A stretch of DNA of 64,000 nucleotides, from assembly GCF_018977255.1 (NCBI RefSeq), contig NW_024704742.1, positions 75,766,001 to 75,830,000 on the forward strand, in the 5' to 3' direction. Within the stretch, counting starts at the first letter, position 1, and each line of letters opens with the position of its first letter. The DNA is from Callorhinchus milii. Its lineage: Eukaryota. A program made the position numbers and the translations under genes. Below the pieces are notes generated by a model that worked only from the letters and a program-made list of their open reading frames with translations, did no database searches and was not told the DNA's origin. Below are positions 19,961 to 61,994 of the stretch, piece by piece.

Positions 19961-20064
19961 GGTGAGTGACGGGGTGACAGGCCTCCGGCCTCCTCCTGAC
20001 ACGGCCCTGGAGAGAGAGGGAGAGAGAGAGGGGGGGACAGGCCGCCGCCGCCCCCGAGCTTTAC

Positions 20065-20197
20065 CTTTGGCCTCGGCCGAGGGGTACAGCTTCTCCGACT
20101 TGTGGAGGAACTTGAGCGCTTTCTCCTGGTCCCCGCACTGCAGCGCTCGGCGGGCGATCTCCAGACACTTCCCCGCCTCGTCCTTATTCCCTTCCAT
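20065..20197 (-). CDS. DNAJB14: DnaJ homolog subfamily B member 14, coding exon 1
   Basis: Translates [44 protein letters not shown], matching the DNAJB12/14 N-terminus. 133 coding bp ending at donor AAG|GTAAAG (phase 1); locally CpG-rich. Confidence 0.93.
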
Positions 20198-20199
20198 CT

Positions 20200-25691: not shown

Positions 25692-25716
25692 NNNNNNNNN
25701 NNNNNNNNNNNNNNNN
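25692..25716. other. Assembly gap (25 N)
   Basis: Run of N. Confidence 0.99.
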
Positions 25717-28543
25717 CCAGCACAGCCCCGCCCACCCCGAGCTGACACTCACTGTCACACTCACCCATAGAGAAACTGTTGACTGCCTTTAACGATGAGA
25801 TTGAAATGTGAAGCTAATAACGTTATCTGCTTAGTTACAAACACTAAACAGAGGAATACAGTACTTTCTGTCATTCTTACATTCCCACAATAGTAGAACT
25901 GATGAAAAGGGGAGGTTTTTTGTGCAAACTCATTCAACAGTGGGCTTTCAAACTGTGCTAGTTCAAACAAGCTTGTATTATATAGTTGGAGTTAGTACAG
26001 TTAGTGGAGCTGCCTGGGTGTAAATAACGCCACACATACATGCAAACCTGATTAGGTGTGTGATATGTTACCTCAGCCTTTATGATAGCTGCACTCCAGT
26101 TCTTACCAACCTGCACTTGATACTTGTCTGGAATTAGGTAAGCAGGATGCATCCCTCCGGGGAGAGAGGGCACATTCCATACCAACAATCTATCTCTGGG
26201 ATTTCCATGTGTAGGTGGGATGCATGGAATTCTCAGCTTGGTTTGGATACTCTTAAGCATAGGGATGGGTTTCCACCTGTGTCTGACACCCAGCTGCCAA
26301 AATAAAAACGATAGCTTCACTCATTCATGTGCAATAGACAAGTGGTCAAACTCCTTAAAGTGCCCACTCTTACTATCCTAATAACTTTAATCATTAGGAT
26401 AGATGTTTGCATTGCTGCCCTTAATTTTATCATCATGTTCAAAATCCCAACATACCTAGTGGGCAGTTTTCTCTTGGAATTTAACAATGAATCTATGGTT
26501 CACTCTTTGAAATTGTACCAAATGAAGCACAGTGCTCTTGGGAGCAATGAGGCAAGAGTACAGAAAATCGATGGTGGTTTGGACTGCTCCGAGGCAGATA
26601 TGTTCCCTGAAGGCGATATTTACTCTCCCTATAAATTATTTTGCAAACATAGTTCTATGCAATTCAGATGCAGTTAACGTTGATAGATTAGACGACTGCA
26701 TCCATGTATAACACGTTTGGTTAAGGGCTCGGGAAATGCTAGCAGCTGACTGAAAAGCCCTCCATGGCCTGGCTCCTTCCTACCTCTGTGACCTGCTAAC
26801 GTCATATCAACCTGTCCGTTCCCTCTCTTCAGCAGGCTCCGGCCTGCTCCATGTTCTCTGCCTGGCCCGCCCCACCATCGTCAGTCGGGTCTTCAGCTTC
26901 TCTGCCCCCGTCCTCTGGAACGCCATCCCACAATCCCTTCACCTCCTTGCCTCCTTCAAGACATGTCTCAAGGCTCTCTTCTTCGACTGCGCCTTTGGTT
27001 AACCTCCTACCCCGACCCTCCCTGCCCTCCATCCCTCTTGATCCCAACCCCCAGCTCGGGTCCAAATCCCTGACTGTCCAGCTCCTTGGGACGTCCTCCC
27101 GACGTGAAAGGTGCTTTACAAATGTAATTTGTTGATGATGATGTTGAAATGCATGCAGATCTAATTGTGGAGAATGATAATCTGTTTCCAGACAACATGT
27201 TGGATCTTACTGATCATGTTGAAAGTGATGAGATATTCAAAAAGAGGTGTGACATATCCTTCCCCACTGATAACTTCAGGTAACTGATTTTAAAAGCTGG
27301 GACTGACCACTTAAGTGTTAATATCCTGTGTTTCACTGTGGCTTAATTTCCAGCAGCCAGAACCGCATAATGCTGATCAACATGTGAACATTTTGGACAT
27401 AAATGATCATATGAGGAGGAGGAGCATGTTATGGTATAGAAGTGGATGGAGACTCATGCTGAGTCTAAACACTGGCTCATACGAATTGGGCCAAATGGTC
27501 TGTTTCTGGATGTAAGCGGGAACCTCTATGTTCAATGAATGGATACCAACCACTGTACATGTACAGTAAACTCTTGATATCTCCAAGGTGAAAAGGTTCA
27601 ATGACAAGTTATGTGGCGTGGCATAGATCCTCCTGGGCCACAATGGGATGCTATGATTGGTGTGGGCACTCAGCAGAGGTTGCAGGCTCAGATAATAATA
27701 TTAATCCTTGCATTTTATATATCGCCTCATCACATCATCAAGACATCTCAATGCGCTTCACAGAATATACTGTAAAGTGTAGTGAATGTGTGTTTTGTGG
27801 GAGAAATGCATTGCTGAGGCCTTTGGTCTTAGTGGCGGGCCACGTCATGGCCCCTTGCTCTATCCTGCATAGGTTAGGGTGAAGGTGGGGCTCACGGGGT
27901 AGTCCTCCAATAGACCAAAGGCCTCTGCGATGCATCTGAGCATGTGTGCCCCAACCTTTGCCAAGTGCCTGTACCAGTCATGGCATAGGGCGGGGGGTCT
28001 ATGCGAAGCAAGACTCCATCTTATAGAACAAGCTATCCATAGTAAGTACTTATAAGAATATCTAGAACGTGACTAGTTACATGTTAGCGGAGTAAAAAGT
28101 AAAGGGCAATGCCTTATTAACATTTTGCATAGAAAACAGTTGGGATATTGACACTTAAGTGGTAGTGACAAGTTAAGCCAGGATCTTGTTATCAGGAGTT
28201 TACAGTGTATCACGTCGAAACATCACAATATCCTTCACAGGGTTTACTGTAAAGTAGTGACGGCGTCAGTTTGTAAGCCAACAAGGCAACCAATTTGTGC
28301 TCAGCAACGTCTCACAAACAGCCATGAAATAAATGGGGAGATATGGCCAGGACACCGGGAGAAATTCCCTTCTCTTTTCAATAATACCATCGGATCTTTA
28401 ACATCCACTTTAACATCTCACCTCGACATGATTGAAAAAAATGGGCCAAATGTTCTTCTGTGCTGTAAATTTCCCCCCAAATTCTGGAAGACACCATCTG
28501 TGACAATTACTCCACCAACATTGTACTAGAATGTCAGCCTAGA

Positions 28544-28605
28544 CTGGGGTGGCCCAACCTTTTGGCTACTGAGGGCCGGATTTGGGAAACGTCTGCGGGC
28601 CACGT
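28544..28605 (+). mobile_element. hAT/Charlie-like terminal fragment (also at 51893-51954)
   Basis: CTGGGGTGGCCCAACCTTTTGG...GAGGGCCGGATTT...GCGGGCCAC resembles hAT MITE termini; no partner end found. Confidence 0.45.
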
Positions 28606-29799
28606 AAGCAATAAGCACCTCATCATCACCCTCGATGGTTCGATCATCTGCCCTGACAGTGAACCACAAAACCCTGCTCTCACTTCTCTCTCCTTTCCTC
28701 TCTGATTCTCTTACTCCCCCTTTCTCTCATACTCTTTCGCTCTTCTCGCTCTCAAACACTCTCTCTTTCCCGCACTCTCTGAATTGCTCTCCCTCCCTGC
28801 TCCCATTCACTCCCTCTCTCTTTCTCACAACCACTCTCTCCCACTCTTTCTCAATTACTCTCTCTCTCCTTTCTCTCTCTCAATCACTCTCTCCCCTCTT
28901 TCTGTCACTCACACTCTCCCCCCTCTCTCCCCTTCCCCTCATCCTCTCTCTCACACACACACTCTCCCCCTCTCTCTGAATCACTCTCTCATCCTCCCCC
29001 CTCCCCACCCTCTTTCTCTCACACACTCTCACTCTTTCTTTCTCACTCCCTCCCTCTCACTCTCTCTCACACTCATACTAGTCTTTGGGAGGGGAGAGAG
29101 ATACAGACAGTTTCTCATCATCAGCTGCCCGGAATCCAAAGTGTTTCTTGAGATTTTGTTGTTCATCAGTGATTGAGTGAGAGAGAGGGAATCAGAGAAA
29201 AGGGGTTGGTTTCTCAACATCATTTACCAGAATCGAAACTATTACTCCATATGCCCTGGTGTTGATCAGTGGGAGCTAGAGATAGAAAGTGAAAGGAGAG
29301 AGGAGAGGAAGGAAAGAAAAACAGAGAAGAGAGTGTATCAAAGCGAGAAGGACACTAAGTGTGAGAGAGAGAGAGAGAGAGAGTGTGTGTATGTGGATGT
29401 CTGAGAGGAGAGGGAGGAAAGAAAAAGAGGGAATGTGAAAGAGAGGGAGAATGTGAGTGAGAGAGAGAGAAATGAGACAAGGGACAGAGACGGTGTGTGT
29501 GTGTGTGAGAGAGAGGAGAGCCAGAGAAATGGAGTGAGAGAGAAGGAGGTAGAGAGAGAAGTGAGGGCAGTGTTTCGTGGTTGGTTCACTGTCAGGACAG
29601 ACAATCGGAGCCTCCCTCGGCCACGGATCGACAAGGACAGAGCCTGAGCGATGTGTCGTGCCCCTGGGAGACAACAATAAATGACATTTATATAGAGCCT
29701 TTCACGTCAGGAGGACATCCCAAGAGGAGACTGTGACGCTTCCCTGGTAGAGGAGTGTGTGTGTGAGCCAAGGGTGGGGAGCCTGGCCGGCCTGTCAGG

Positions 29800-30309
29800 A
29801 TGGGGTGCTGCGGCAGTAAGAAGGTCGGTGATCATTTGTCTCTGGAGAAGATCCTGGTGTATGAGGCTCCGGAGGTTCCTTCATCCAGAGACATTCTGTT
29901 GTACCGGGATGAGGAGGAACCCGAGGAGGAACTGGACCGGCACTTGGATGAGAACCAGTTCTTTTCCTACTTCTTCTCTGCGATAGACTATACTCCCCCT
30001 TTCCAGGGGGTCCTGAGCCGCTGGCAGAGTGAAGTGCAAAATGCCAAGCACGTAGGAGACGTGGACTGGCACCAGGTCTGGAAGTCCAGCGGCTACATCC
30101 ACACTTTGAAGCAGATGCGGAGCCTGATCGAAGCCAAGCGTTTGACCCAGACCTAGCTGAGGGCACTCGGGGCGTGGTCGGAGCAGGTGGTGAAGCGCAG
30201 GCAGATGGAGTACACGCAGGCGTGGAAGTGGGGCAAAGCCGATGCCGGTCACTTCAAGGTTTTGGAAACTTGGAAAGAGCTGCACAGAGCAGTGCAAGGG
30301 CGGTGGTAG
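29800..30309 (+). pseudogene. Paralog of the MGCCGSKK ORF with a premature stop at codon 119 (TGG>TAG, 30154-30156)
   Basis: Colinear with 53149-53658. I count 8 substitutions: 2 synonymous, 5 missense, 1 nonsense. The frame stays open to the shared TAG at 30307-30309. Confidence 0.65.
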
Positions 30310-30377
30310 GGCAGAGGAGCGATGCGAAACCCCCTCCTCCCTCCCCCAACCCACCCCCAGAGGAGAAGCTGATTGGG

Positions 30378-30825
30378 TGTGTCAGCCTGGCTCAGTTGGT
30401 AGCACTCTTGTCTCTGAGTCAGAAGGTTGCGAGTTCAAGCCCCACATTGGGACTTGGAATCACATAGCCTAAGCTGACACTCCAAAGTAGTGCTGGGGGA
30501 GCGCTGCATTGTCGGAGGCGCTGTGTTCGGATGGTACGTTAAGATGAGGCCCCGTTTGCCTGACATTAAAGATCCCTCGTCGCTGTTCAAAATGAGAAGG
30601 GAATTTCTCTCTCTCCCGGTGCTGTGGCCAACAATTATCCCTCAGATAAAATTGGTCAGTCATTCCATAGCTGTTTGCGGGACACTGCTGTGTGCAAATA
30701 GGCTGCCGGTTTTCGCCCACAAAATACAGTCAATCCACTTTACAGCGTATCCTGTGAAGCACTTTGAGATGTGTCGACCGAATGATAAAGCACTATATCA
30801 AATGCAAGGATTATTATTATTATTA
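30378..30825 (+). mobile_element. tRNA-derived SINE (family B, DeuSINE-like), near full length. Others at about 46985-47485(+), 57190-57540(-) and 62840-63255(-)
   Basis: A box TGGCTCAGTTGG, B box GGTTGCGAGTTCAAGCC, central Deu-like core and (TTA)n tail. Confidence 0.85.
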
Positions 30826-43215: not shown

Positions 43216-43308
43216 AGACAAAAAACAAATGCTCATGATTGATCAGCAATACTGAAATGCAGCCACAACCATATTTTGCTGTAATACCTATAATTTTACT
43301 GTACTTAC

Positions 43309-43398
43309 TCTGAGACCATATCGAGGGATACTCAAATACTGCAGCCACGACAACCAGGACACGATACTGACCAGGTTCACCAGAAGACCTGAAAGGAT
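43309..43398 (-). CDS. ABCG2: ABCG2 exon 14 equivalent
   Basis: 90 bp: ILSGLLVNLVSIVSWLSWLQYLSIPRYGLR; donor GTAAGT. Confidence 0.97.
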
Positions 43399-43679
43399 CT
43401 GGAGAAAATCACAAATAGTTAAAAATTTGCACATAAATGAAGACATTCGCCTGCTTTCACCATCGTTCCTGTTCAACAGTACAATGACTCAGTCAAAAGC
43501 ATTCTTGCCACTGTCTCACAAGGTTGTGGGTTGGGTTCAAGCTCCATACCTGGCCAGGAGCTCATCATAATTCAGATTAATACTTAAATGCAGTAAAGTG
43601 GAGCACCTCATTGTCACTTTCAATGAAATATATGAGCCTGTTCTGGTTAAAGATCTACAATAATAATATTAATCTGTGC

Positions 43680-45448
43680 ATTTGGTATAGTGGTTTTCAA
43701 ATTAGGGGAACATCCCAAAGAGCTTCATGGGATACATAGTAGTACTGTGTGTTTTGTGGGTGAACGTGGGTCTTGAAGGAGGCAAGGGAGAGGGTGAGGC
43801 GGAGGGACTGCGGTATGGAGTTCCAGAGGGTAGGGGCAGAGTGGCAGAAGGCCTGTCCGCCAATGGTGGGGCGGGCGAGGCGGGGGACGTGAAGCGGTTA
43901 GGTAGGGGGTTAGGAGGTTGCAGAGGTAGGGAGGAGCAAGGCCATGGAGGGCACTGCAGGTGAGGACCAGGATCTTGAAGTGCATCCTCTGTGTGATGGG
44001 AAGACAGTGGAGTTGGGCGAAGATGGGGGTGATAGGATCACGGAGCCTAGTGCACAAGATGACATGGGCTTCAGAGTTCTGGATGATCTGCAGCCTATGG
44101 AGGGAGGAGTTGTGGAGGCCAGCAAGCAGTGAGTTTGCATGGTCGAGCCTCGATGTAATGAAAGCGTGTATGAGGGTTTTGGTGGCCTGCAGTGTGAGAC
44201 AATGGCAGAGACAGGCGATGTTGCGGAGGTGGGGGAAGGCAGAGCGGGTCATGGTGCAGATGTGGGGTAGAAAGGATAGTTGAGAGTCAAACAAGACCCC
44301 AAGGTTCCGGACTGGCTTAGCAAGGTTGAGTGTGCAACCATGGATGGTGATGCTGTCAGCACCTGAGGTGAGGAGGCGCTGACGGGGGCCAATCAGGAGA
44401 GCCTCAGTCTTGTTGACATTCAATTGAAGAAAGTTAGCTCTCATCCAGGACTTGATGTCTGACAGACATTCTGTCAGTACAGCAGTGGTTGTGGAGTCGA
44501 GCTACAGTTGGGTGTCATCGCATACATGTGGAAGTTGACCCCTTGTCTGCCGATGATGTCACCAAGAGGGAGTATATAGATATTGAAGAGGAAGCGACCA
44601 AGGACAGAGTCCTGAGGAACGCCACGCGAGATGGTGGAGATGAAGTGGAGGTGGTGTGAGAGGTACGATCTGAACAAGTCAAGGACAGCGCCGTGAAGGT
44701 TGAGGAGAAAGGAGAGGTGATGGTTGCGGATATATTGGTCGACGGTGTCGAAGGCAGCAGATAGGTCAAGGAGGATGAGGAGGCAGAGGGAGCCCTGGTC
44801 GCAGATGGATAGAATGTCATTTGTCACTTTGACCAGGGCTGTTTCTGTGCTGTGGGGGGCATGGAAAGCTGATTGTAGGGGTTTGTGAAGGGAGTGGCGG
44901 GAGAGGAAGGAGCGAAGCTGGGAAGCAACAAATCATTGCATGACCTTGGAGAGGAAAAGGAGGTTGGTGATGGGGCGGTAGTTTGAGAGCAACGATGGGT
45001 CCAGGGAGGGCTTTTTTAAGGATAGGAGTGATGATGGCGGTTTTTAAAGGGGTGGAATTAGTACCAGTGGACAGGGAGAGGTTTATGATGTCAGTGAGTA
45101 GAGGGGCAAGGAGGTGGAGCCTGGTGGTAAGGAGTGGGGTAGGGATGGGGTTGAGGGAGCAGGTGTAGGTTTCATGCAGGTTATGGTGGTGGTGAGAGAG
45201 GAGTGGGAGACAGGTTCAAAGGTGTGGAAGGAGGGCTGGGTAGTGGCTGGGGTGGGAGGGGCAGATGGGGAAGGGGTAGTAGACAGAAGGGCAGAGGCAG
45301 CTGAGCGGATCCCCTCAACTTTAGATTCGCTTAAGTCCAGCATTGCCTCGCAGTTGGCATTGGAAGTGAGGATGGGCAGAGGAGCCGGTTGGTGATGGAG
45401 AAGAGCCTGGGGTTGTCCTTGGCCTCCAAGATTGTCTTGGAGTAGACT
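43680..45448 (-). mobile_element. L2-clade LINE fragment with RT domain
   Basis: LLILLDLSAAFDTVD, GVPQDSVLG, FHMYA, NFLQLNVNKTE, VRNLGVLFD and SRLDHANSLL; frameshifted. Confidence 0.92.
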
Positions 45449-47106: not shown

Positions 47107-47540
47107 AGCGCTTTGGGACGTCTAGAAGACGTGAAAAGCGCTATATCAAATGCAAGGATTATTATTATTAGATGGGGGATGTGTGCTGCATTGTCAGACA
47201 TACCGTCCTTTATATGAAATGTTAAACCAATGTCCCGTCCCCCAGTCAGGTGGATGTTAAAGATTTCAAGACATTACTCAAAAAGAAAACAGAGTTCCTC
47301 GTGTACCTTGACTGACAATTCCCCCTGTTAAAATTGGTCACTCACTTCATGAGGATAGTGGGAACATTGGTGTGCGCAAATTGGCTGCCTTGTTTTTGTA
47401 CAAAACACAGTCATTACACTTTACAATACATCCTGCGAAGAGCTTTGAGATGTCCTCCTGATGTAAAAAGCAATATATTATTATTGGTTATAATAATAGC
47501 ATAATCATGCTCTTGGTAGCTCGAGATTGAAATTGCTCAC

Positions 47541-47665
47541 CTATCATGAAATAGGTTACAGTTGCAAGCACTGTGGCTGGCAAAGCCCTCATTGGGATTA
47601 GATCAACCAGTAACTTTGACAAGAAATAAGCAAATATTCTGTAGTATCCACTGATATATTCATGG
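47541..47665 (-). CDS. ABCG2: ABCG2 exon 12 equivalent (TM3)
   Basis: 125 bp: HEYISGYYRIFAYFLSKLLVDLIPMRALPATVLATVTYFMIG. Confidence 0.97.
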
Positions 47666-49286
47666 CTGTGGGTAAAATAAGAAAGAGGTATAAAAATTAC
47701 TTTTAGCAAAACTGGCAAAGGAATTACTGTATATCACAACCAAACTTTTCTGCATATAACATGCCCTCCCCCATCCCCCCTATATAATACTTAGTAAAAC
47801 ATACCAAATATATTGCACAATCCCCTGCCCTTTTCTTGGGAGACAAAACACCACAATACTGTATGTAAAGCAAGGAGTTTTTTTGTTTTACTAATATGCG
47901 TCAATGATTGACACTATGCCATCTGCAGGTTGCCTGAACAAACTGTGATCACTTCACTAAAATAAAATGACGTGGTGCAACAACAAAGCCAAGACGTTGT
48001 GGGTGCTGGTACATTACATTACTGGATTTTATGTCTGATACAGAAATTAGTACATGCTAATCTAATCCATATTTTACCAGTGCAGCAATGTTTCATGAGT
48101 AAAAACTATTTACAAGTATCTATTTCTTCAAAGAATATGCTGCTGATAGTGGTAACATATGGAACTCCCTCCCTCTAACACTCTGCCCCACCCCCTCTCG
48201 ATCTGTCATTAAGTTCCTCCTACCTCTTTTAACATCCTTATGGCCTCCTCCCTCTCCCCCTCGTCCCTGTGAAGCTCTCTGAGATGTTACGCCACATGAA
48301 GGCGCTACACAAAGGTAAATTGTTGAGCAAAAACGGATTAGGCTGTCGCGTGATTAATGACAGCGGAAACTATCTTGATTTGAATGATGCAGCTGGTAAA
48401 TACGATATATGAAAGAAGCTAATGTACAAGTACTACTGTAGTTGCCGTAGAATGATTCTGAACTAACTAGCCCATGTCTTTACTTCTGTAATAGGAAGTC
48501 AGTGCTGTGTTGGATCAAAATGTGCTGTAATAATTCTTCGTGCTTATGTTGTGCCTTTTATATAGGGAATACATGCTAAAATGCTTCACAAAGACAGAGT
48601 GGGAGCCTGAGTGGGTGTGAGACAGGGGGAACGTGGCCAAAGGTCTAGTTAAATAAAGAGGTTTTTTTTGACAGATCTTGAAAGAAGAGGGAACAAACAG
48701 GTTTTCTGTTGGGACTTTTTCACTTGCTGTTATGGCATAGGGGGTTTAGTCTGAGTGGGAGCAAAGACTCCAGACATGCAGATTTTGTTCTATCATTTTT
48801 AGTTTAATTGCTACGTACATGCTGCTAGACTGTTCATCTGCTTTTTAATACATGTTAGTACATCCAGCGCCTGGAATCCACCTGGATTGGCTTGCAGAGG
48901 TAAGCAGCAGCTGCTTAAACTCCGCACCTCCAACTTATACTCTGCACCTCCAACTTGCGGAACCATCTCTCAACGTGTGCCCGAGCTGCGGACAGGAAGT
49001 TGATGGCAGTGCTCTCACGCATTTCACACTAGTTTTTAGATTACTGAGTTCTTGTAACCATGCACTGACTGATTCTGTGTTCTAATTAATGCTGAGAAGC
49101 CAGGTAAACACTTCCCAGTCAACAATAACTTATCATCTGTCAGCTGTCATCTCCAGCTGGTGTTGTCTTTACAACACCATTCAAGTAACCAGTATGTTTT
49201 AGCGCCAAGAGGGCGAACATCTGCAATCACTAATGAAAAGCTTGGATTTTGAGCCTTTAGTGAATTGTAAAATAAAAAGCCCTTAC

Positions 49287-49376
49287 ATGAAAATCTTCTT
49301 TTCTATGACGAACAGTTCAATAGCAGATAGACTGCTAAAACACAGGTTGGTGGTCATAAAAAACAACGCCCCGACT
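49287..49376 (-). CDS. ABCG2: ABCG2 exon 11 equivalent (TM2)
   Basis: 90 bp: VGALFFMTTNLCFSSLSAIELFVIEKKIFI; donor GTAAGG. Confidence 0.96.
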
Positions 49377-51141
49377 CTGTGAAAAGAAAATAAGAATGTT
49401 AAAATATTCCACTTTTAAATACTTCATTCCCAATTTAGCATATTTCAATAACTTCCATAAAAGATGGAAAAGAATGAAGGACAGACACACTTCAAGCAAT
49501 GTAAGCACTGACATTTTTATACTGTAAGCTGTATAAAGGGCTCAAACTCGCACTTATGACCAACTAGTTGACTATACTGTGGGGGTGTAAGCGAGGTCTC
49601 CTTGGAGCTGAACTGACAATGGAATGTCAGAAACGAACCAGCCGGTGGTAGTCTCAGTAGTCCGGTTCCTGAGCCGGATGGGTCCGCAGCATTCCAGGGC
49701 ACTGCTGAATTACAGCCCAGCCAGCCTGGCAGAACTTGGGAGGGGCAGACCAGTCATTGGGATTTTTCCCATTCAGGTCCTGTTAATCCTACAAGCCAAA
49801 GCCCTAATGCGTAGGGTGATACTAGAAACAGAAATCTACAACTCACTAGGCCATTTGGCCCATAAAGTCCACACTATCATCCCACTTTATCCTCAAAACC
49901 CCTTCAAGCCCCTCTCTTTCAAATGTCCAGCCACCTCCTTCTTGCAAGCTACAATGGAGTCCGCCTTCACCTCCTATTTGGGAGGGCATTCCACATTTCA
50001 ACCACTCTCTGGGTACAAAATTCCTCCTCCTAAGTTCTCCTTTCACTCCTCTTGTGGCTATCTTATAACTATGGCCCAGTTACTGACTCCCCTCTCAGTG
50101 GAAATAACTTCTCTCTATCTGCCCTAACAAAAACCCTCATGATTTCCAGTGACTTCTACCTCCTCTCGAATTGAAAGGTGCTGCACAAATGTAATTTGTT
50201 GTTGCTGTTATTTTTTGTATATCTCTAGCTGGACAAGCAGTGGGAAAGTTTGCCAAATAATGCTTTCAATGGCAAGCTATGTGCTTTACAGTGGCGGAGT
50301 CCGTCAATGAGCCAGGCAGAGAGGGAGCGGGGGAGATGACCGTAAGCATGATCAAAAAGGAAGGTCTTTGGGCCGGACTTTTACAGGGATGAGAAAGTAT
50401 GAGAAATTGGCTGACCAAAAAATAGCTGAAAAGCTGTCGGTAGCTCAGTACTGCTGACTAAACTTGGCTGGTAGCTTAGTTGGTAGCATTCTTGCCTGAG
50501 TCAGAAGGCTGTGGGTTTAAGGCTTTGAGCTCATAGTCTCGGCTGACACTTCAGTGCAGTATTGGGAAGCCCTGCATTGTCAGAGGTGCTTTCAGATGAG
50601 ACATTTAAACCAAGGTCCTGTTGAGGTGGACGTAAAAAATCCCATGGCACTCCTTGAAAAGAGGTGGGTGTTTTCCCAGAGTTCTGGCCAGCAATGCTCC
50701 ATTTTTCTGCTCATCTCTTCCTTGTGACTATCTTGGACTTGCTGTGTGTACTCTGTCCCCTCCACTCCACCATTGGTGGCTGACTTTTCAACCACTATGC
50801 CCCATAATGTCTGGAACTTCTTCCTTCTACCTCTCCGTTTTGCCCCCACCCATCTGTCTGTCCTTAAATGTTGTCTAAAAACCTACCTTTGACCCGAGAG
50901 TCACAGCCCTTTCCACCTCATCCTTTCCTTGGTGTCTGACCCTATCTTTATAAAGCTCATCAAGCTATTATCTTACAATGAATGAAGGGTGCCATATTAA
51001 TACACACTGTTATACTGCTTTTATAGGATCATTAGAGGTGACATAGCAGGAAGACTTCCAAATTCTCAGTAAAATGGAATTGAACCATTGGTCCCAGAGG
51101 TGAAGGATACTATACTACACCAACTCGTCCATCTATCCATA

Positions 51142-53825
51142 TTTTGTGGGAGAAATGCATTGCTGAGGCCTTTGGTCTTATTGGCAGGCCACGTCATGGC
51201 CTCTTGCTCTATCCTGCATAGGTTAGGATGAAGGTGGGGCTCACGGGGTAGCCCTCCAATAGACCAAAGGCCTCTGCGATGCATCTGAGCATGTGTGCCC
51301 CAACCTTTGCCAAGTGCCTGTACCAGTCATGGCATAGGGCGGGGGGTCTCTGCGAAGCAAGACTCCATCTTATAGAACAAGCTATCCATAGTAAGTACTT
51401 ATAAGAATATCTAGAACGTGACTAGTTACATGTTAGCGGAGTAAAAAGTAAAGGGCAATGCCTTATTAACATTTTGCATAGAAAACAGTTGGGATATTGA
51501 CACTTAAGTGGTAGTGACAAGTTAAGCCAGGATCTTGTTATCAGGAGTTTACAGTGTATCACGTCGAAACATCACAATATCCTTCACAGGGTTTACTGTA
51601 AAGTAGTGACAGCGTCAGTTTGTAAGCCAACAAGGCAACCAATTTGTGCTCAGCAACGTCTCACAAACAGCCATGAAATAAATGGGGAGATATGGCCAGG
51701 ACACCGGGAGAAATTCCCTTCTCTTTTCAATAATACCATCGGATCTTTAACATCCACTTTAACATCTCACCTCGACATGATTGAAAAAAATGGGCCAAAT
51801 GTTCTTCTGTGCTGTAAATTTCCCCCCAAATTCTGGAAGACACCATCTGTGACAATTGCTCCACCAACATTGTACTAGAATGTCAGCCTAGACTGGGGTG
51901 GCCCAACCTTTTGGCTACTGAGGGCCGGATTTGGGAAACGTCTGCGGGCCACGTAAGCAATAAGCACCTCATCATCACCCTCGATGGTTCGATCATCTGC
52001 CCTGACAGTGAACCACAAAACCCTGCTCTCACTTCTCTCTCCTTTCCTCTCTGATTCTCTTACTCCCCCTTTCTCTCATACTCTTTCGCTCTCCTCGCTC
52101 TCAAACACTCTCTCTTTCCCGCACTCTCTGAATTGCTCTCCCTCCCTGCTCCCATTCACTCCCTCTCTCTTTCTCTCAACCACTCTCTCCCACTCTTTCT
52201 CAATTACTCTCTCTCTCCTTTCTCTCTCTCAATCACTCTCTCCCCTCTTTCTGTCACTCACACTCTCCCCCCTCTCTCCCCTTCCCCTCATCCTCTCTCT
52301 CACACACACACTCTCCCCCTCTCTCTGAATCACTCTCTCATCCTCCCCCCTCCCCACCCTCTTTCTCTCACACACTCTCACTCTTTCTTTCTCACTCCCT
52401 CCCTCTCACTCTCTCTCACACTCATACTAGTCTTTGGGAGGGGAGAGAGATACAGACAGTTTCTCATCATCAGCTGCCCGGAATCCAAAGTGTTTCTTGA
52501 GATTTTGTTGTTCATCAGTGATTGAGTGAGAGAGAGGGAATCAGAGAAAAGGGGTTGGTTTCTCAACATCATTTACCAGAATCGAAACTATTACTCCATA
52601 TGCCCTGGTGTTGATCAGTGGGAGCTAGAGATAGAAAGTGAAAGGAGAGAGGAGAGGAAGGAAAGAAAAACAGAGAAGAGAGTGTATCAAAGCGAGAGGG
52701 ACACTAAGTGTGAGAGAGAGAGAGAGAGAGAGAGTGTGTGTGTGGATGTCTGAGAGGAGAGGGAGGAAAGAAAAAGAGGGAATGTGAAAGAGAGGGAGAA
52801 TGTGAGTGAGAGAGAGAGAAATGAGACAAGGGACAGAGACGGTGTGTGTGTGTGTGAGAGAGAGGAGAGCCAGAGAAATGGAGTGAGAGAGAAGGAGGTA
52901 GAGAGAGAAGTGAGGGCAGTGTTTCGTGGTTGGTTCACTGTCAGGACAGACAATCGGAGCCTCCCTCGGCCACGGATCGACAAGGACAGAGCCTGAGCGA
53001 TGTGTCGTGCCCCTGGGAGACAACAATAAATGACATTTATATAGAGCCTTTCACGTCAGGAGGACATCCCAAGAGGAGACTGTGACGCTTCCCTGGTAGA
53101 GGAGTGTGTGTGTGAGCCAAGGGTGGGGAGCCTGGCCGGCCTGTCAGGATGGGGTGCTGCGGCAGTAAGAAGGTCGGTGATCATTTGTCTCTGGAGAAGA
53201 TCCTGGTGTATGAGGCTCCGGAGGTTCCTTCATCCAGAGACATTCTGTTGTACCGGGATGAGGAAGAACCCGAGGAGGAACTGGACTGGCACTTGGATGA
53301 GAACCAATTCTTTTCCTACTTCTTCTCTGCGATAGACTATACTCCCCCTTTCCACGGGGTCCTGAGCCGCTGGCAGAGTGAAGTGCAAAATGCCAAGCAC
53401 GTAGGAGACGTGGACTGGCACCAGGTCTGGAAGTCCAGCGGCTACATCCACACTTTGAAGCAGATGCGGAGCCTGATCGAAGCCAAGCGTTTGACCCAGA
53501 CCTGGCTGAGGGCACTCGGGGAGTGGTCGGAGCAGGTGGTGAAGCGCAGGCAGATGGAGTACAAGCAGGCGTGGAAGTGGGGCAAAGCCGATGCCGGTCA
53601 CTTCAAGGTTTTGGAAACTTGGAAAGAGCTGCACAGAGCAGTGCAAGGGGGGTGGTAGGGCAGAGGAGCGATGCGAAACCCCCTCCTCCCTCCCCCAACC
53701 CACCCCCAGAGGAGAAGCTGATTGGGTGTGTCAGCCTGGCTCAGTTGGTAGCACTATTGTCTCTGTGTCAGAAGGTTGCGAGTTCAAGCCCCGCATTGGG
53801 ACTTGGAATCACATAGCCTAAGCTG
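51142..53825 (+). repeat. Local duplication, copy B (inserted in the ABCG2 intron between the exon 10 and 11 equivalents)
   Basis: 2684 bp, about two dozen substitutions by eye versus copy A. Flanked by 37-bp direct repeats at 51107-51143 and 53830-53866. Confidence 0.96.
53149..53658 (+). CDS. Unassigned intronless 169-aa ORF with an N-terminal MGCCGSKK lipidation motif, nested antisense in an ABCG2 intron
   Basis: Strong Kozak context (cAggATGG), coding-like GC-rich third positions, non-repetitive protein, and an N-myristoylation consensus (G2, S6, K7) with adjacent C3/C4. No family recognised; expression unknown. Confidence 0.6.
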   Translation: MGCCGSKKVGDHLSLEKILVYEAPEVPSSRDILLYRDEEEPEEELDWHLDENQFFSYFFSAIDYTPPFHGVLSRWQSEVQNAKHVGDVDWHQVWKSSGYIHTLKQMRSLIEAKRLTQTWLRALGEWSEQVVKRRQMEYKQAWKWGKADAGHFKVLETWKELHRAVQGGW

Positions 53826-54007
53826 TGATATACTATACTACACCAACCAGTCCATCTATCCATATTCTTCTTAGAAACGTCAGGGTGAATTTCAATCTAA
53901 GCATATCCTACCAAGTCTAATGATGTTTCCAATTGGGACAAAATTGACACTCCTATTTTTCTCTACCAAGTGATGAAATGAGCCCCATCCCGTGCAACTA
54001 CACTAAC

Positions 54008-54090
54008 CTGTTCTGAATTCCATTCAAATCATTTTTCACTCCAAAAGATAAGGCTCCCACAACCAGACCCATGGAAAGCGAAACCAATAT
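54008..54090 (-). CDS. ABCG2: ABCG2 exon 10 equivalent (TM1)
   Basis: 83 bp: ILVSLSMGLVVGALSFGVKNDLNGIQNR. Confidence 0.95.
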
Positions 54091-55926
54091 CTAATGGAGA
54101 GAGAAAATGCAATTAGTACAATAAAATCTTTCCAAAACAGTATATTTATTGGGAAGAGGAACAAATTAGTGTGAAAATTTTATAACAGGGTGAAGTATAT
54201 TAAAAAGGGATCACAGAGATTCTGCAATAAAGAAACAGTTTGCCTCAAAGCAGTTTGCCAAATATTTTACCTAAGTTTGCTGAAGGCAATAATGCAAGCT
54301 GTCACAATATATCACTAACCAGAGTTAGAAGCTTATTTATTCAAGCAAATGGTATTGGAAGGAAAATACTGTGCAGCTTCTCCCTACAAAATAACCAAGA
54401 CAGTGAAGTTAAAAACCGAGCTCAGGGGAGAAATTACACCTGGCTATAGATTTACTCCAGAACTTGGAAAAATGTTGAATTCAGTATTAAGTTTGAGATG
54501 GATTTTCTGCAATTCTTAAAATAAACTTAAAAAAACTTGAAAATTAAGACTGCATTTAAGAATTTGCCAAATTATGGATGTTCCAAATAGTACTACATAA
54601 AAAGAGTAAATCTAAAGGAGGGTGGACTCTCTCCTCCCTCCGTTCAAAATCTGTCTCAAGATGTAACTCTTTGACCTTTGACATCTTTCTCCTCTCGACT
54701 CTCTTCAGCAACTGTCCTCCTGGATCAGGTGCCCAGTAGTGTTAAGCGTTTTGGGACATCCTACCAACTCAATGCCATTGTAAATGTAAATTGTATTGTA
54801 TTTTCTCCTCTCTTGTTAAGAAAGGGATGATGTAAATGGTACCTCATGTCAGAAAATAGCTTCAAGATATAGTCTATCTCCTCCAGGTAATTTCACATAC
54901 TTTGTGCGGACCTATGAAAACTTGGCTCTGAAGAAATCTCAGATGGAATCAAAGTTCTTGCAGGATGACATGACACAATGGTGTAAGCAATCCCAGAATT
55001 CTGGATTGTCTTAACTTGACCAAAGACTTTTGCGAAGACTCATGGACTTTATTTCCTAAAGGCTAACTGTATACATAAATGGATCAAGGCCAAGGACAAA
55101 CGGAAGAACAAGGATCAAAGGATTTCTTCAACCTGGAAGATAAAATTCTTTTGTCGCATTGCAGCTGATGTCTGGAACGACACATTGAACAGACTGGGGT
55201 ACGTGACCAACAAGGTATAAAGAACCAGAGATTTAGGGGTTAATCAGAAGAGCTAACTGCAAACAATCTTGAGGAAAGAGGGATATACTGCAATCAACAT
55301 TGATCACTATACCAAGTTAACAAGCCAATTCATCAATTGAAGCTGTTGTATTGGTCCGATCAACTCATTGAGGTGAACTGTACTAACCAGTCATAAGCAT
55401 TAATTTGATTATATGAAACATATCACCTTGATATGCATTTATTTACTCATCTTTTATTAACATTTACTAATTGAAGCAAATTGAGAGTTGTGCCAATTTG
55501 TACTTCACTGCAGGCTCATAGATTTTAAGTAACCCTACAATGGTAAGATTCACTTTATATCCTGCAGTGTTTTTTCTAGCATGAGGGTCAACATCCTTTT
55601 TTAAATTGAGTCATTAATTTGGGTGCCCATTGCCCCGAGACCTCGGTGCCCCGTAACTTGGAGATTTAGATCCCTGGTCTTTGCGATTTAGGTAGATATG
55701 AATAGATGTGCTACAGCTACTACACTTAATAGTTATTGCTGTTCAAGCACTTTGAAACGTTTCAGCGTTATAGGTGCTGTATCAAATAGAAGGTTTTTAT
55801 TATTAAGTGAGGATCAAATCTGCCATTATTCATAACAACCACATAATAAAATCATGACATTGCTCTTATCATTAAATTAGTTACTATAAATGTTTACAAA
55901 CTAAAGACTACAGAGGTGCATCCTAC

Positions 55927-56177
55927 CTGAGCAACAGAGGTTTGAGGACTCCTCAGCAGATTTTTGAATGATCGTTTGGTCAACCACTTTAGCTGGTGAC
56001 TGAATGATGTTGAGTACATGATTTGTCTATGAAATGATTCTGATCCTTTTTTTGCTTCCGACAATTGTTTTAATTTGGCCATCATTTCACTGGAATAGGT
56101 GGATTTGGAAAACATAATTGCAAGTTTCTCTGCTAGTGTAGTTTCCGTTTTTCCAAAAAGAGCTTCAAAATCCATAT
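55927..56177 (-). CDS. ABCG2: ABCG2 exon 9 equivalent
   Basis: 251 bp, AG/GT bounded: DMDFEALFGK...LAEKLA...YSTSFSHQLKWLTKRSFKNLLRSPQTSVAQ. Confidence 0.95.
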
Positions 56178-56457
56178 CTTTAGTGGAGGGGAAAAAAACC
56201 AAAGTATTATTGGTTATTAGCAGATACAACTAAGTTGCATCCAATAGGGTTCACATCAACTAAGCAGCTTCTAGTGCTATAAAATGACCCATTTCCAGGC
56301 CAGCAGGTTGTCACAATGCGTGGTAAGTGACATCTATGGCAAGCTGATAACCAGGAAATCAGTAATTTTTACAGCACAGGAAGCTGGCCGGCATTTTGCA
56401 GTGAGCAGGTTGACTTTCTGAGTCCATTTTGCGGTAAATAAATACGGAGTCCATATC

Positions 56458-59813: not shown

Positions 59814-60356
59814 GGCCTTGGATATAGCACCTTATCATGCCGTGGAAACGTCTCAAAGCGTTTAACTGAATATACTGTAAAGTGAATTAACTGTATATTT
59901 TGTGGGCGAAACACGGCAGCCAATTGCACAGCAGTTCTCCGCAAACAATCGTTAATTGATTGACTAAATTATTTATTTATTGAAGGGATTATTACCCCCG
60001 AAAAACAATCGCCAAATGACGAACAACTGGGTTCCCACTTACTGCTAGGTAAACAGAGGCATGTGGAATAAGGAAACTTGCCCAAGATTTCAGCAATCCA
60101 GCCCAGGTCATCTCGTTTGCGAGGCCATTCCTTCACAAAATATACAGTCAATTCACTTTACAGTAAATTCTGTCAAGTTATTTGAGGAGTCTCAACGACA
60201 TAAGGAGCTTTATCAAATGCAAGGATTATTATTATTATTATTATAGAAAAGGAAGGGGTAGAAAATAGAGCCCTGAGGTGCACCGGACATGATCTTGGAA
60301 GGTGGGAAGAGAAACCATTGGAGGAGACAAAGTGGAGGCGGAGGGTCAGCACTCAC

Positions 60357-60508
60357 CAATTGTGGCAAAGTAATCCAGTGCTTTGAAAGCTGGGCCTTGG
60401 AAAATCATTCTTCCATTTGCCAGGAGTGTCAAGCTATCAAAGAGCTTAAAGATAGAGTATCTGGGCTGATGGATTGAGAAGATGATCGTTTTACCTTGCT
60501 TTGACATC
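60357..60508 (-). CDS. ABCG2: ABCG2 exon 7 equivalent (H-loop)
   Basis: 152 bp: MSKQGKTIIFSIHQPRYSIFKLFDSLTLLANGRMIFQGPAFKALDYFATI; donor GTGAGT. Confidence 0.97.
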
Positions 60509-61836
60509 CTAAGAAAAAGAGGGAAATTGATGCATTTTCATTATAATTGTCCATAAGAAAGGTTTCGTCCACAAAATATACAGTCAATTCACTTCACAGT
60601 ACATTCTGTGAAGCGCTTTGAGACATCTCGAAGATGTGATAAGGCGCGTATCAAATGCAAGGATTATTATTATTAATCAAGTCTTATGTATTCAGGCAAT
60701 CTTTTTGTCGTGCGAATAACCCCAATTAAGGCATTTGTAAGAGTTACATAAACACCGGAACTGTGCTGAGGCCTGGTAGATAGTAAGCATAACCCAGAAC
60801 AAAAAATACAAGGAAAGAAATGAGACATGAATGAGCTGGAAACTATAACATAGCTGAAATTCTGAAGCAGGGAAAGTTTTGAGCAAATTGTGCAGGATAT
60901 GTTTATCTAAAGAGAAAAATCTATCAACAACCAGTCAGCATGGATTCAGAGGCAATATTCCTCGTAAATCTAGCACAATTTGTGGTGTTAATTAAACCAG
61001 TGGGTGAGGAGTATCTAATAGTTATAACGTACTTGAAATTTCAAATAAAGTTGGGATCATTTTCAGAAAGATTCCCTCAAACAAAATTTGAATGAAGCTT
61101 AAAGCCCATAAAATGAAAGGGAAATTGAAAAATGGCTCAGCAAGAGGAAAATCATAATATGGAAAGGCTTTGTTGACAGGCAGCATCTAACAATGGTGTC
61201 TGTTATGGATGCTGGCCACCTCGTTTATAAATGCAACACAACAATACAAATTTACAATTAGATTGTGCTTTTCACATTGGGAGGACACCCCAAAGTGTTT
61301 GATATTGCTGGCTGGGCATCTGAGTTTGGGGTGCGAATCAAGGGGGTGGGGAGCGAAAAAATGACAAAAAGTAGGTCAAAATGAGGTATGTTTTAAGATG
61401 GATCTTGAACAAGGCGAGCCGTTAAACTGAGATCCAGAGCAATAATTCTCCATATAAAATTGGGAATTCACTTCAGGGTTGTTTGTGGGCTGTTTTTGCA
61501 TGCAAACTGGTTGCAACATTCAGCAAGATACACAGTCACTGCCCTTTACAGTATATTCTGTGAAGTACTTTTCGATGGCTTCCTGACGTGAAAGCGCTAT
61601 ATCAAATGCACAGATTGTAATGATATGACCATGTGATTGACAAAAGAAATATAGCAGTTAAGAAGATCTGAACCAATTCTGCATCTGTGCTAAGGAATGA
61701 CTGATGGACTTTAATGTATGTGCACACAATAAAGGTGTAGAGATTAGCAGAGAAGGGAAAACATTTGGGTGATACAATGAAGGATACTGTGGTGTAGACT
61801 GCATCTGATCGAGTGATTTTTCATCTAATAAACTAC

Positions 61837-61994
61837 CTTTTCAGTAAGAGCAAGACAGCATGAGCGGTGCTGGCATCCAGTCCAGTGGTCGGTTCATCCA
61901 GGAACAAGACAGTGGGATTAATGATCAGTTCCATTCCAATGTTTGTCCTCTTTCTTTCTCCACCAGACACGCCTCGAATCAGTTGAGTGCCAAC
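61837..61994 (-). CDS. ABCG2: ABCG2 exon 6 equivalent (ABC signature and Walker B)
   Basis: 158 bp, AG/GT bounded: VGTQLIRGVSGGERKRTNIGMELIINPTVLFLDEPTTGLDASTAHAVLLLLK. Confidence 0.97.

What the first reader, a model, noticed from the sequence alone, without database searches (positions are those of the whole stretch)
53149..53658. Unassigned, predicted lipid-anchored 169-aa protein gene nested antisense inside ABCG2
Seen: an intact single-exon ORF with a strong Kozak context. It starts MGCCGSKK, has an acidic stretch (RDEEEPEEELD) and a Trp-rich C-terminal half. Established: MGxxxSK is the N-myristoyltransferase consensus, and Cys3/Cys4 next to it are typical S-palmitoylation sites that target proteins to the inner membrane leaflet. 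Inference: a lineage-restricted membrane-associated protein that I cannot place in a known family. It sits on the opposite strand inside a transporter gene and has a nonsense-bearing paralog 23 kb away. This is the best candidate for something undescribed in the window.
Basis: partly seen in the sequence, partly recalled or inferred. Interest (0 to 1): 0.85.

Follow-up and report, generated by a model that had tools for sequence, protein, structure and literature searches.

The report
Shark-lineage lipid-anchored small protein gene
This is a real but uncharacterised small gene of a family found only in sharks, rays and chimaeras, whose protein probably hangs on the inner face of cell membranes by two lipid anchors, and this copy landed recently inside an intron of the ABCG2 transporter gene.

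Summary
The 169-codon ORF at 53149..53658 (+) is there exactly as described. It is not a chance ORF. The same genome holds three further intact paralogs (41-49% identity), all starting MGCCGS, and a profile search found relatives only in cartilaginous fishes, all named "uncharacterized". The genome is Callorhinchus milii by an identical named paralog.

The family layout is an N-terminal Met-Gly-Cys acylation motif, a variable disordered linker ending in an acidic run, and a confidently predicted helical domain of about 120 residues. That domain has no Pfam, PDB or viral-structure match. The paralogs evolve fast (pairwise dN/dS 0.48-1.66) yet keep open frames, which random substitution would almost never allow.

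The ORF lies antisense in a 4.6-kb intron of an ABCG2 gene, whose splicing is confirmed by spliced contigs. That position is secondary. The ORF sits in a 2,684-bp segment, 99.1% identical to a copy 23 kb away, and is bracketed by a 33-nt direct repeat that occurs nowhere else in the genome.

Contigs from runs that contain spliced RNA cover the ORF, but neither the strand nor the copy of origin is resolved. Membrane anchoring and function remain inferred. Interest is moderate.

The parts
53149..53658 (+). Coding sequence of 169 codons plus TAG; copy A of the gene
   Evidence: It is homologous to three intact paralogs in the same genome and to cartilaginous-fish proteins.
53149..53172 (+). Codons 1-8, MGCCGSKK: predicted N-myristoylation site (Gly2) and S-palmitoylation sites (Cys3, Cys4), followed by two Lys
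   Evidence: The pattern MG-{EDRKHPFYW}-x-x-[STAGCN]-{P} (recalled from PROSITE PS00008) is met in 14 of 15 family sequences. Cys3 is present in 12 of 15 and Cys4 in 8 of 15. The role of Met-Gly-Cys is described in the abstract of PMC2200018.
53173..53286 (+). Residues 9-46: predicted disordered linker ending in an acidic run (codons 36-46, 53254-53286)
   Evidence: pLDDT is below 50 for residues 1-46. The pI of residues 1-46 is 4.3. The linker varies greatly in length across the family, and most members have an acidic run before the domain.
53287..53655 (+). Residues 47-169: conserved helical domain (five main helices plus one short one), basic (pI 9.4) and Trp-rich
   Evidence: AF2 block means of pLDDT are 81-94, with helices at 49-62, 71-85, 90-94, 99-111, 117-143 and 149-167. 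Invariant residues are G70, R74, W75, W94, T102, L103, V130, V131 and H151. There is no significant match in the PDB or BFVD.
52923..53148 (+). 5' flank present only in copies A and B as a whole and alignable among all four paralogs. It contains a fragment of a dispersed repeat at about 53020-53075.
   Evidence: Contigs of X1 cover 52917-53072.
51142..53825 (+). Copy A of the 2,684-bp duplicated segment that carries the gene, made of repeat-rich upstream DNA, the ORF and the head of a tRNA-like SINE (about 53727-53825)
   Evidence: It is 99.1% identical to 27793-30476, with 24 differences, 8 of them in the ORF. The upstream part consists of dispersed and CT/GA-rich repeats.
51109..51141 (+). 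Left copy of the 33-nt direct repeat bracketing copy A (looks like a target-site duplication)
   Evidence: The pattern occurs twice in the window and twice in the whole genome, only at these two places. The junctions are shown.
53832..53864 (+). Right copy of the 33-nt direct repeat bracketing copy A (two adjacent mismatches to the left copy)
27793..30476 (+). Copy B of the duplicated segment, probably the source locus, lying beyond the 3' end of ABCG2
   Evidence: Its right junction runs on into the SINE body. No cellular gene domains were found in 1-36 kb, only LINE/RT ORFs.
29800..30309 (+). Twin ORF of copy B, broken in the reference by TAG at codon 119 (30154-30156). It also carries 5 missense and 2 synonymous differences from copy A.
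49377..54007 (-). Intron of the host ABCG2 gene that contains copy A
   Evidence: The GT donor after 54008 is seen. A loose end of the spliced contig maps to 49347-49376.
54008..54090 (-). ABCG2 exon
   Evidence: Contigs of X3 and X5 join 54090 to 55927 with CT..AC ends, which is GT..AG on the minus strand. Sequence shown.
55927..56178 (-). ABCG2 exon, aligning to human ABCG2 residues 323-398
47491..47733 (-). Open frame holding an ABCG2 exon (human residues 456-505; ABC2_membrane profile positions 82-133). Exon limits were not determined.
60349..60537 (-). Open frame holding an ABCG2 exon (start of ABC2_membrane_7). The loose end of the spliced contig maps to 60358-60387.
61836..61994 (-). 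Open frame holding an ABCG2 exon (end of the ABC_tran nucleotide-binding domain)

Best explanation
The ORF is a genuine protein-coding gene. It belongs to a small, fast-evolving family found only in cartilaginous fishes (chimaera, skate, sharks) and has no described function. SHOWN: the family exists, keeps its reading frame, and keeps an N-terminal Met-Gly-Cys(-Cys)-x-Ser motif and a helical domain of about 120 residues. The four C. milii copies are a lineage-specific expansion. The window copy lies in a 2.7-kb DNA segment that duplicated from a site 23 kb away and inserted, with a 33-nt flanking duplication, into an intron of ABCG2 on the opposite strand. INFERRED mechanism: after removal of Met1, N-myristoyltransferase acylates Gly2 during translation, and Cys3 and Cys4 are then S-palmitoylated. 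The protein is thereby fixed to the cytoplasmic leaflet of the plasma membrane or endomembranes, probably in ordered-lipid domains. A flexible acidic linker holds out the basic helical domain, which acts as a protein-binding adaptor and not as an enzyme. The high dN/dS among paralogs suggests that its partner changes quickly, as in immune or host-pathogen conflict or in germline functions. This last step is the weakest.
For: Family and coding status.
- Five places in the genome match the protein (5 matches among 7 candidates scored). Four are intact and all four start MGCCGS.
- A profile search of 1.84 billion representatives gave 11 hits at E<=0.001. Ten are family members: eight are named cartilaginous-fish proteins, all 'uncharacterized', and two come from unnamed Logan assemblies. 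The eleventh is a spurious fn3/LRR repeat protein.
- Two more members, from Stegostoma and Rhincodon, came and were named.
- Under random substitution to the observed nucleotide distances (0.29-0.39), only 0.07-0.35% of simulated ORFs stay free of stops.
- The acylation pattern is kept in 14 of 15 sequences while the linker next to it varies from about 40 to 160 residues.
- Met-Gly-Cys is necessary and sufficient for palmitoylation-dependent targeting in Src-family kinases (abstract of PMC2200018).

Structure and chemistry.
- AF2 gives pLDDT 81-94 over residues 47-169 and below 50 over residues 1-46.
- There is no hydrophobic segment (highest Kyte-Doolittle mean over 19 residues is 0.69). The pI is 4.3 for residues 1-46 and 9.4 for residues 47-169.

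Evolution.
- The C. milii paralogs form one clade with 99/99 support.
- Pairwise dN/dS is 0.48-1.66 at dS 0.20-0.66.

Duplication and host gene.
- Duplication and flanking repeat.
- Host intron and ABCG2 identity.

Transcription.
- Contigs of X1, X3 and X5 cover the ORF end to end (53044-53755, 53044-53678 and 53044-53680).
- The same runs hold spliced contigs. X3 and X5 join 54090 to 55927. X1 has a contig ending at a GT donor at 55372 whose continuation maps behind an AG at 63062. They therefore contain RNA.
Against: - No lipidation, localisation or partner was tested or can be tested here.
- No listed run is on record as RNA. Contigs do not give the strand, so plus-strand transcription is not shown.
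- The contigs over the ORF are mosaics of copy-A and copy-B letters. The only flank-anchored end (X1 at 53825) runs into copy B's flank, so expression of copy A itself is not shown.
- Copies A and B differ at only 8 ORF sites (2 synonymous, 5 missense, 1 nonsense), so the intactness of copy A says nothing about selection on it.
- Pairwise dN/dS near or above 1 also fits relaxed constraint on much of the protein. The Nei-Gojobori method on 117-124 codons is crude, and no significance test was run.
- The structural model rests on an alignment of only 4 sequences.
- The N-myristoylation pattern used is recalled from memory.
Confidence: 0.6

Rival explanations
1. The family is real, but the window copy (A) is only a young, redundant duplicate with no function of its own. 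Its frame is open because too little time has passed to break it, and the nested position has no consequence.
For: The duplicated segments differ by only 24 of 2,684 bases, 8 of them in the ORF, and 6 of those 8 change the protein in one copy or the other. The one flank-anchored contig end points to copy B. The flanking repeat marks A as the derived insertion.
Against: About 2 kb of upstream DNA, including the 226 bp that align among all paralogs, was copied with the ORF, so A probably carries its own promoter. In the reference, B has a stop at codon 119, which leaves A as the only intact gene of this branch of the family. Contigs of all four runs carry copy-A letters at some diagnostic sites.
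Confidence: 0.3
2. The family is a highly diverged offshoot of a known dual-acylated small protein (LAMTOR1/p18, BAALC or SMAKAP type; names recalled) that sequence and fold searches can no longer recognise.
For: The same N-terminal MGCC-type start and similar size (about 150-240 aa) are known for LAMTOR1 (recalled, no call). Fast evolution could erase similarity.
Against: The window protein has no Pfam family at E<=10, and none of the 13 members has one at E<0.05. The profile search of PDB sequences gave a best E of 0.0048, to an unrelated RhoGAP. No chain of such proteins is among the 50 best of 48,161 chains. The HMMER profile found only cartilaginous-fish proteins.
Confidence: 0.08
3. The ORF derives from a mobile element or a virus, for example a myristoylated matrix- or tegument-like protein, and is carried or captured and not a host invention.
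For: It has a myristoylation-type start plus an acidic cluster, as in several viral membrane-targeted proteins (recalled). It moved as a 2.7-kb block with a flanking duplication. The neighbourhood is rich in repeats.
Against: The genome holds only 5 copies, and 4 are diverged paralogs with conserved flanks. No RT, integrase or transposase ORF lies inside the 2.7-kb unit. No BFVD structure matches at E<=0.001; the best E is 0.45. The family is spread across the cartilaginous fishes, and the chimaera copies form their own clade.
Confidence: 0.05
4. It is a chance ORF in intronic repeat DNA and not a gene.
For: Long open frames are common in this window: 437 of 55 aa or more.
Against: Homologs with the same start, same end and conserved motifs occur in at least nine cartilaginous-fish species. 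The simulation argues against neutral retention of the frame.
Confidence: 0.02

Closest known systems
Uncharacterized protein LOC103177159 of Callorhinchus milii (XP_007889387.1) and 'uncharacterized' or 'hypothetical' proteins of Amblyraja radiata, Heptranchias perlo, Scyliorhinus torazame, Chiloscyllium punctatum, Carcharodon carcharias, Stegostoma tigrinum and Rhincodon typus
   Same: True homologs with the same architecture: a MGC-type start, a variable linker with an acidic run, and a helical domain of about 120 residues with the FFxxFF, GxLxRW, GY(I/L)xTL, VVKxR and ADxxH motifs.
   Different: They are 27-48% identical to the window protein. The window's exact protein is not in the collection searched. 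None of them has a described function, and two literature searches found nothing.
LAMTOR1 / p18 (Ragulator anchor), recalled from memory
   Same: A small protein starting MGCC, N-myristoylated and doubly palmitoylated, whose helical remainder serves as a membrane-anchored scaffold. This is the closest analogy for how the window protein may work.
   Different: No sequence or fold similarity was detected. LAMTOR1 is conserved across eukaryotes, whereas this family is confined to cartilaginous fishes and evolves fast.
SH4 Met-Gly-Cys motif of Src-family kinases (Fyn, Lck)
   Same: N-terminal Met-Gly-Cys with basic residues at positions 7-8, which directs myristoylation plus palmitoylation and targeting to caveolae or rafts (PMC2200018 abstract; PMC2132482 abstract start).
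   Different: Only the first few residues are comparable. There are no SH3, SH2 or kinase domains.
BAALC and small membrane AKAP (C2orf88), recalled from memory
   Same: Small vertebrate proteins with an MGC start that are dual-acylated and act as membrane-tethered binding platforms.
   Different: No Pfam match to any family, and the domain is different.
HIV-1 Nef and herpesvirus UL11-type proteins, recalled from memory
   Same: A myristoylated N-terminus, a flexible anchor region with an acidic cluster, then a folded core that serves as an adaptor.
   Different: No structural match among predicted viral structures. The window gene belongs to a host family with paralogs and orthologs.

Membership tests
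Chondrichthyan MGCC-start helical protein family (unnamed; includes LOC103177159) | Significant full-length sequence similarity to other members | tested here: met
   E values of 3.7e-26 to 3.9e-25 to the three diverged paralogs. Profile hits range from 5e-79 to 4e-11.
Chondrichthyan MGCC-start helical protein family (unnamed; includes LOC103177159) | N-terminal Met-Gly-(Cys) acylation-type motif | tested here: met
   MGCCGSKK. The pattern is met in 14 of 15 family sequences.
Chondrichthyan MGCC-start helical protein family (unnamed; includes LOC103177159) | Conserved C-terminal domain with invariant G70, R74, W75, W94, T102, L103, V130, V131 and H151 | tested here: met
   The model is helical with pLDDT 81-94.
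N-myristoylated, S-palmitoylated (dual-acylated) peripheral membrane proteins | Gly2, a permitted residue at position 3, a small residue at position 6, no Pro at position 7 (pattern recalled from PROSITE PS00008), and Cys next to Gly2 | tested here: met
   Met-Gly-Cys role: abstract of PMC2200018.
N-myristoylated, S-palmitoylated (dual-acylated) peripheral membrane proteins | Actual attachment of myristate and palmitate, and membrane localisation | not testable with these tools
   This needs metabolic labelling and imaging of wild type against G2A and C3S/C4S mutants.
LAMTOR1 / BAALC / other described Pfam families | Match to the family's profile | tested here: not met
   The window protein has 0 Pfam families at E<=10. 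Across the 13 members the best E is 0.055, to unrelated families matched by one member each.
LAMTOR1 / BAALC / other described Pfam families | Fold likeness to a solved member | tested here: inconclusive
   Foldseek against the PDB gave a best E of 0.54. VIA-align against 48,161 chains gave a best Z of 6.5, with only generic helical bundles.
Transposable-element or retroviral ORF | High copy number, adjacent RT, integrase or transposase, and terminal repeats of an element | tested here: not met
   There are 5 genomic matches. No TE domain lies in 51142-53825. The flanking 33-nt repeat is unique target DNA and not an element terminus.
ABCG2 (host gene on the minus strand) | ABC_tran and ABC2_membrane exons in order on one strand, with ABCG2 as the closest solved relative | tested here: met
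   Pfam hits lie at 61836-61994, 60349-60537, 49286-49414, 47491-47733 and 43291-43488. Only ABCG2 chains are hit in the PDB, at E 3e-13 and 1e-14.

The most novel reading that the evidence does not exclude
The family is an invention of cartilaginous fishes: a membrane-tethered adaptor with a previously unseen helical fold, whose paralogs diversify under positive selection because they take part in a host-pathogen conflict (for example as a restriction or decoy factor at the inner membrane leaflet) or in a germline conflict. The duplicate inside ABCG2 would then be a snapshot of the family's ongoing expansion by short DNA-segment duplication.
Probability: 0.15. Interest if true: 0.65.

Novelty: new variant of a known kind. 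Interest (0 to 1): 0.4.

Why it matters
Cartilaginous fishes are the outgroup to all other jawed vertebrates, and their lineage-specific genes are almost unstudied. This family has a plainly readable targeting signal (Met-Gly-Cys-Cys), a confidently folding domain with no recognisable relatives, and fast-diverging paralogs, so it is easy to take to experiment through acylation mutants, localisation and proximity labelling. The locus also documents how a complete small gene can be copied as a 2.7-kb DNA block into an intron of another gene, creating a nested antisense pair. If the protein proves to be only one more uncharacterised lineage-specific gene with a lipid anchor, the finding is of routine annotation value: three of the four intact C. 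milii paralogs, including this one, are not in the protein collection searched.

Tried and rejected
- Word-index protein search with the single protein: 65 candidates, none at E<=0.001. With alignment A2 and 'longer' lengths: none at E<=0.01, which is weak evidence that no fused forms exist.
- ESM Atlas: no usable hit and no model.
- Foldseek against the PDB and BFVD, and VIA-align wide: nothing above the generic helical-bundle level.
- PDB sequence profile: best E 0.0048, to a RhoGAP over 66 residues; treated as chance.
- P0011, the eleventh profile hit, is an fn3/LRR repeat protein whose score adds up over 13 weak stretches. Rejected.
- The look-up of sequencing runs: no RNA holder listed.
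- In read laying, X1 had no cover on the two ABCG2 exons or on 53836-54771. X1, X3 and X5 had no cover on 53836-53952, just beyond copy A's right junction. Lack of cover is not evidence.
- The loose end at 53043, shared by X1, X3 and X5, looked like a 5' exon spliced to an AG. It maps to another contig (C16) that shares the dispersed repeat 53020-53075, so it is an assembly-graph junction and not a splice.
- Likewise, the X3 loose end at 54994 maps 29 Mb away.
- Homodimer test of residues 44-169 with complex prediction: no verdict (score 0.01, controls not run).
- Earlier notes of the scan: nothing at this place or with this sequence.
- Literature: 0 papers for 'LOC103177159' and 0 for 'MGCCGS'. 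A search on elephant shark, lineage-specific genes and orphan genes listed nothing on this family (listing only).
- Neighbourhoods of the other paralogs: an NWD1-like WD40 ORF 8-11 kb from L003 and a BTB-Kelch gene about 15 kb from L004, with no shared context.
- One search failed because the twin ORF contains a stop codon; the alignment was repeated without it.
Full report
**1. Observation**

The window holds an uninterrupted 169-codon frame at 53149..53658 on the + strand.
- It starts MGCCGSKK and has the acidic run RDEEEPEEELD at residues 36-46.
- It has ten Trp residues, all within residues 47-169.
- The start context is caggATGG, with A at -3 and G at +4, and an in-frame stop lies 11 codons upstream.
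- A twin ORF lies at 29800..30309, 23,349 bp upstream, with TAG at codon 119.

ORF length is not remarkable in itself. The window has 437 stop-to-stop frames of 55 aa or more and several above 170 aa.

**2. It is a gene family**

A six-frame search of the roughly 991-Mb genome gave 5 matches among 7 candidates scored. These are the ORF, its twin, and three places at 41-49% identity. Each of those three is an intact ORF (148, 175 and 235 aa), starts MGCCGS(K/R) and ends at the same point of the alignment.

The 235-aa paralog is identical to XP_007889387.1, 'uncharacterized protein LOC103177159' of Callorhinchus milii, which names the genome. The exact proteins of the window ORF and of the other two paralogs are not in the 15-billion-protein collection.

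A profile of the four proteins was searched by HMMER against 1.84 billion representatives.
- It found 11 proteins at E<=0.001.
- Ten are family members: eight named proteins from Callorhinchus, Amblyraja, Heptranchias, Scyliorhinus, Chiloscyllium (three) and Carcharodon, and two from unnamed Logan assemblies.
- All named members are called uncharacterized or hypothetical.
- The eleventh is a spurious fn3/LRR repeat protein.

A second search added Stegostoma and Rhincodon. Nothing outside cartilaginous fishes was found.

**3. Architecture**

In the 13-sequence alignment the invariant positions are M1, G70, R74, W75, W94, T102, L103, V130, V131 and H151. G2, F54, F55, Y99, R134, A141 and W158 are nearly invariant.

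The N-terminal pattern MG-{EDRKHPFYW}-x-x-[STAGCN]-{P} (recalled from PROSITE) is met by 14 of 15 sequences. The exception is a Logan fragment that lacks the N-terminal part. Cys3 is present in 12 of 15 and Cys4 in 8 of 15.

The linker between motif and domain runs from about 40 to about 160 residues and usually ends in an acidic run.

AlphaFold2, run on the 4-sequence alignment, gives the following:
- Residues 1-46 are disordered (pLDDT below 50).
- Residues 47-169 are helical, with block means of 81-94 and pTM 0.68.
- The helices lie at 49-62, 71-85, 90-94, 99-111, 117-143 and 149-167.

There is no hydrophobic segment. The linker is acidic (pI 4.3) and the domain basic (pI 9.4).

**4. No known family**

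- Pfam gives nothing for the window protein at E<=10, and only single weak hits (best E 0.055) among the 13 members.
- The PDB sequence profile gave a best E of 0.0048, to an unrelated RhoGAP.
- Foldseek against the PDB gave a best E of 0.54, with 0 hits at E<=0.001.
- VIA-align against 48,161 chains gave a best Z of 6.5, with 0 chains at Z>=8 and only generic helical bundles.
- BFVD gave a best E of 0.45.
- The ESM Atlas gave no usable hit.
- No longer fused forms were found.
- No paper contains 'LOC103177159' or 'MGCCGS'.

**5. Selection**

The nucleotide p-distances among the four paralogs are 0.29-0.39. When the ORF is mutated at random to p = 0.25-0.35, only 0.35-0.07% of 20,000 replicates stay free of stops. 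The open frames are therefore maintained by selection.

The proteins nevertheless change fast. Nei-Gojobori dN/dS over the domain is 0.48-1.66 at dS 0.20-0.66, the highest value being for the two adjacent paralogs on contig 4. No significance test was run.

The four C. milii genes form one clade with 99/99 support, and galeomorph shark proteins form another with 100/99 support. That tree used 14 rows; the 117-aa Rhincodon fragment was left out.

The roughly 300 nt upstream and the first nucleotides after the stop also align among the paralogs. The upstream part includes a fragment of a dispersed repeat about 75-130 nt before the ATG.

**6. Genomic setting**

Minus-strand frames carry ABC-transporter domains in gene order:
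- ABC_tran at 61836-61994
- ABC2_membrane_7 at 60349-60537
- ABC2_membrane at 49286-49414, 47491-47733 and 43291-43488

Two of the exons hit only ABCG2 chains in the PDB, aligning to human residues 323-398 and 456-505.

Contigs of runs X3 and X5 join 54090 to 55927 with CT..AC ends, which is GT..AG on the minus strand. Their loose ends map to 49347-49376 and 60358-60387. The ORF therefore lies antisense in the intron 49377..54007, about 350 nt from its donor site.

**7. The nested position is secondary**

The segment 51142-53825 is 99.1% identical to 27793-30476. There are 24 differences, 8 of them in the ORF: 2 synonymous, 5 missense and 1 nonsense.

Copy A is bracketed by a 33-nt direct repeat, at 51109-51141 and 53832-53864, with two adjacent mismatches. 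This repeat occurs nowhere else in the genome. At copy B the right junction runs straight on into the body of a SINE. Copy A is therefore a duplicative insertion into the ABCG2 intron, and copy B is the likely source. Copy B lies in repeat-rich DNA beyond the 3' end of ABCG2, where only LINE/RT ORFs were found.

The unit carries about 2 kb of repeat-rich upstream DNA. It has no poly(A) tail, so it was copied as DNA and not through an mRNA.

The flanking repeat is more diverged (2 of 33) than the unit (0.9%). This may reflect later gene conversion between A and B; that is inference only.

**8. Transcription**

No run is on record as RNA (see Tried and rejected). Three of the runs laid nevertheless contain spliced contigs:
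- X3 and X5 hold the spliced ABCG2 contig.
- X1 has a contig ending at a GT donor at 55372 whose continuation maps behind an AG at 63062 on the + strand.

Each of these runs has a contig covering the whole ORF.

These contigs are mosaics of copy-A and copy-B letters at the 8 diagnostic sites. None of the four runs carries the TAG allele, although contigs drop minor variants. The X1 contig end at 53825 runs into copy B's flank. The paralog pair is therefore probably transcribed, but neither the strand nor the copy of origin is settled.

**9. Mechanism**

The mechanism is inferred, not shown. Met-Gly-Cys is necessary and sufficient for palmitoylation-dependent membrane-domain targeting in Src-family kinases (PMC2200018 abstract). 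The motif here is conserved between chimaera and elasmobranchs, while the linker beside it is free to vary.

I therefore read the protein as an N-myristoylated, doubly palmitoylated peripheral membrane protein. Its basic helical domain would be held at the cytosolic face by a flexible acidic tether and would serve as a binding module. The closest working analogy is LAMTOR1/p18 (recalled), but no homology to it was detected. Fast divergence of the paralogs suggests a rapidly changing partner.

A homodimer prediction gave no verdict (see Tried and rejected).

**10. Verdict**

- Relatives are already in databases, though unnamed.
- The nesting results from an insertion and is not a conserved arrangement.
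- Expression of this copy is unproven.

It is a new, uncharacterised domain family used in a known way (a dual-lipid anchor). Interest is moderate.

Noticed in passing
window 54837-55372 and 63062-63091 (+): A contig of run X1 covers 54837-55372 and ends at a plus-strand GT donor (gag|gtgaac at 55372/55373). Its continuation maps to 63062, directly behind an AG. This looks like a plus-strand spliced transcript, antisense to ABCG2, spanning a 7.7-kb intron and entering SINE-like sequence. Whether it is joined to the ORF's transcript is unknown.
   Followed up: partly
window 30154-30156 (codon 119 of the twin ORF): The TAG allele that breaks copy B in the reference was present in the contigs of 0 of 4 runs laid. 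The contigs over the ORF are mosaics of copy-A and copy-B letters. This could reflect polymorphism, gene conversion or collapse of variants during assembly.
   Followed up: partly
window 33227-36100 (+): A LINE-type retroelement with a GDSL-lipase-like ORF (33227-33886), an endonuclease ORF (34272-34871) and reverse-transcriptase pieces (35414-36075).
   Followed up: no
window 10808-11632 (-) and 44477-44932 (-): Further reverse-transcriptase ORF fragments. The second lies inside an ABCG2 intron.
   Followed up: no
window 17427-20354: About 3 kb is open in all six frames, with extreme skews (GC skew -0.57, AT skew 0.81 at 18-20 kb). This is presumably a long simple or low-complexity repeat.
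   Followed up: no
window 53020-53075; also upstream of the paralogs in L003, L004, L005: A fragment of a high-copy dispersed repeat (1,214 first-look candidates in the genome) lies 75-130 nt upstream of the ATG in all four paralogs. It was therefore part of the gene's 5' region before the family expanded.
   Followed up: partly
L008:763-4005 (+) (G000:C4:75385763-75389005): A 1,081-aa open frame with an NWD1-like winged-helix domain and WD40 repeats lies 8-11 kb from the paralog pair L003/L005. A BTB-BACK-Kelch gene (L012:5077-6504, -) lies about 15 kb from paralog L004.
   Followed up: no
window 25692-25716, 2663, 2942: Runs of N: one 25-base assembly gap and two single N positions.
   Followed up: no
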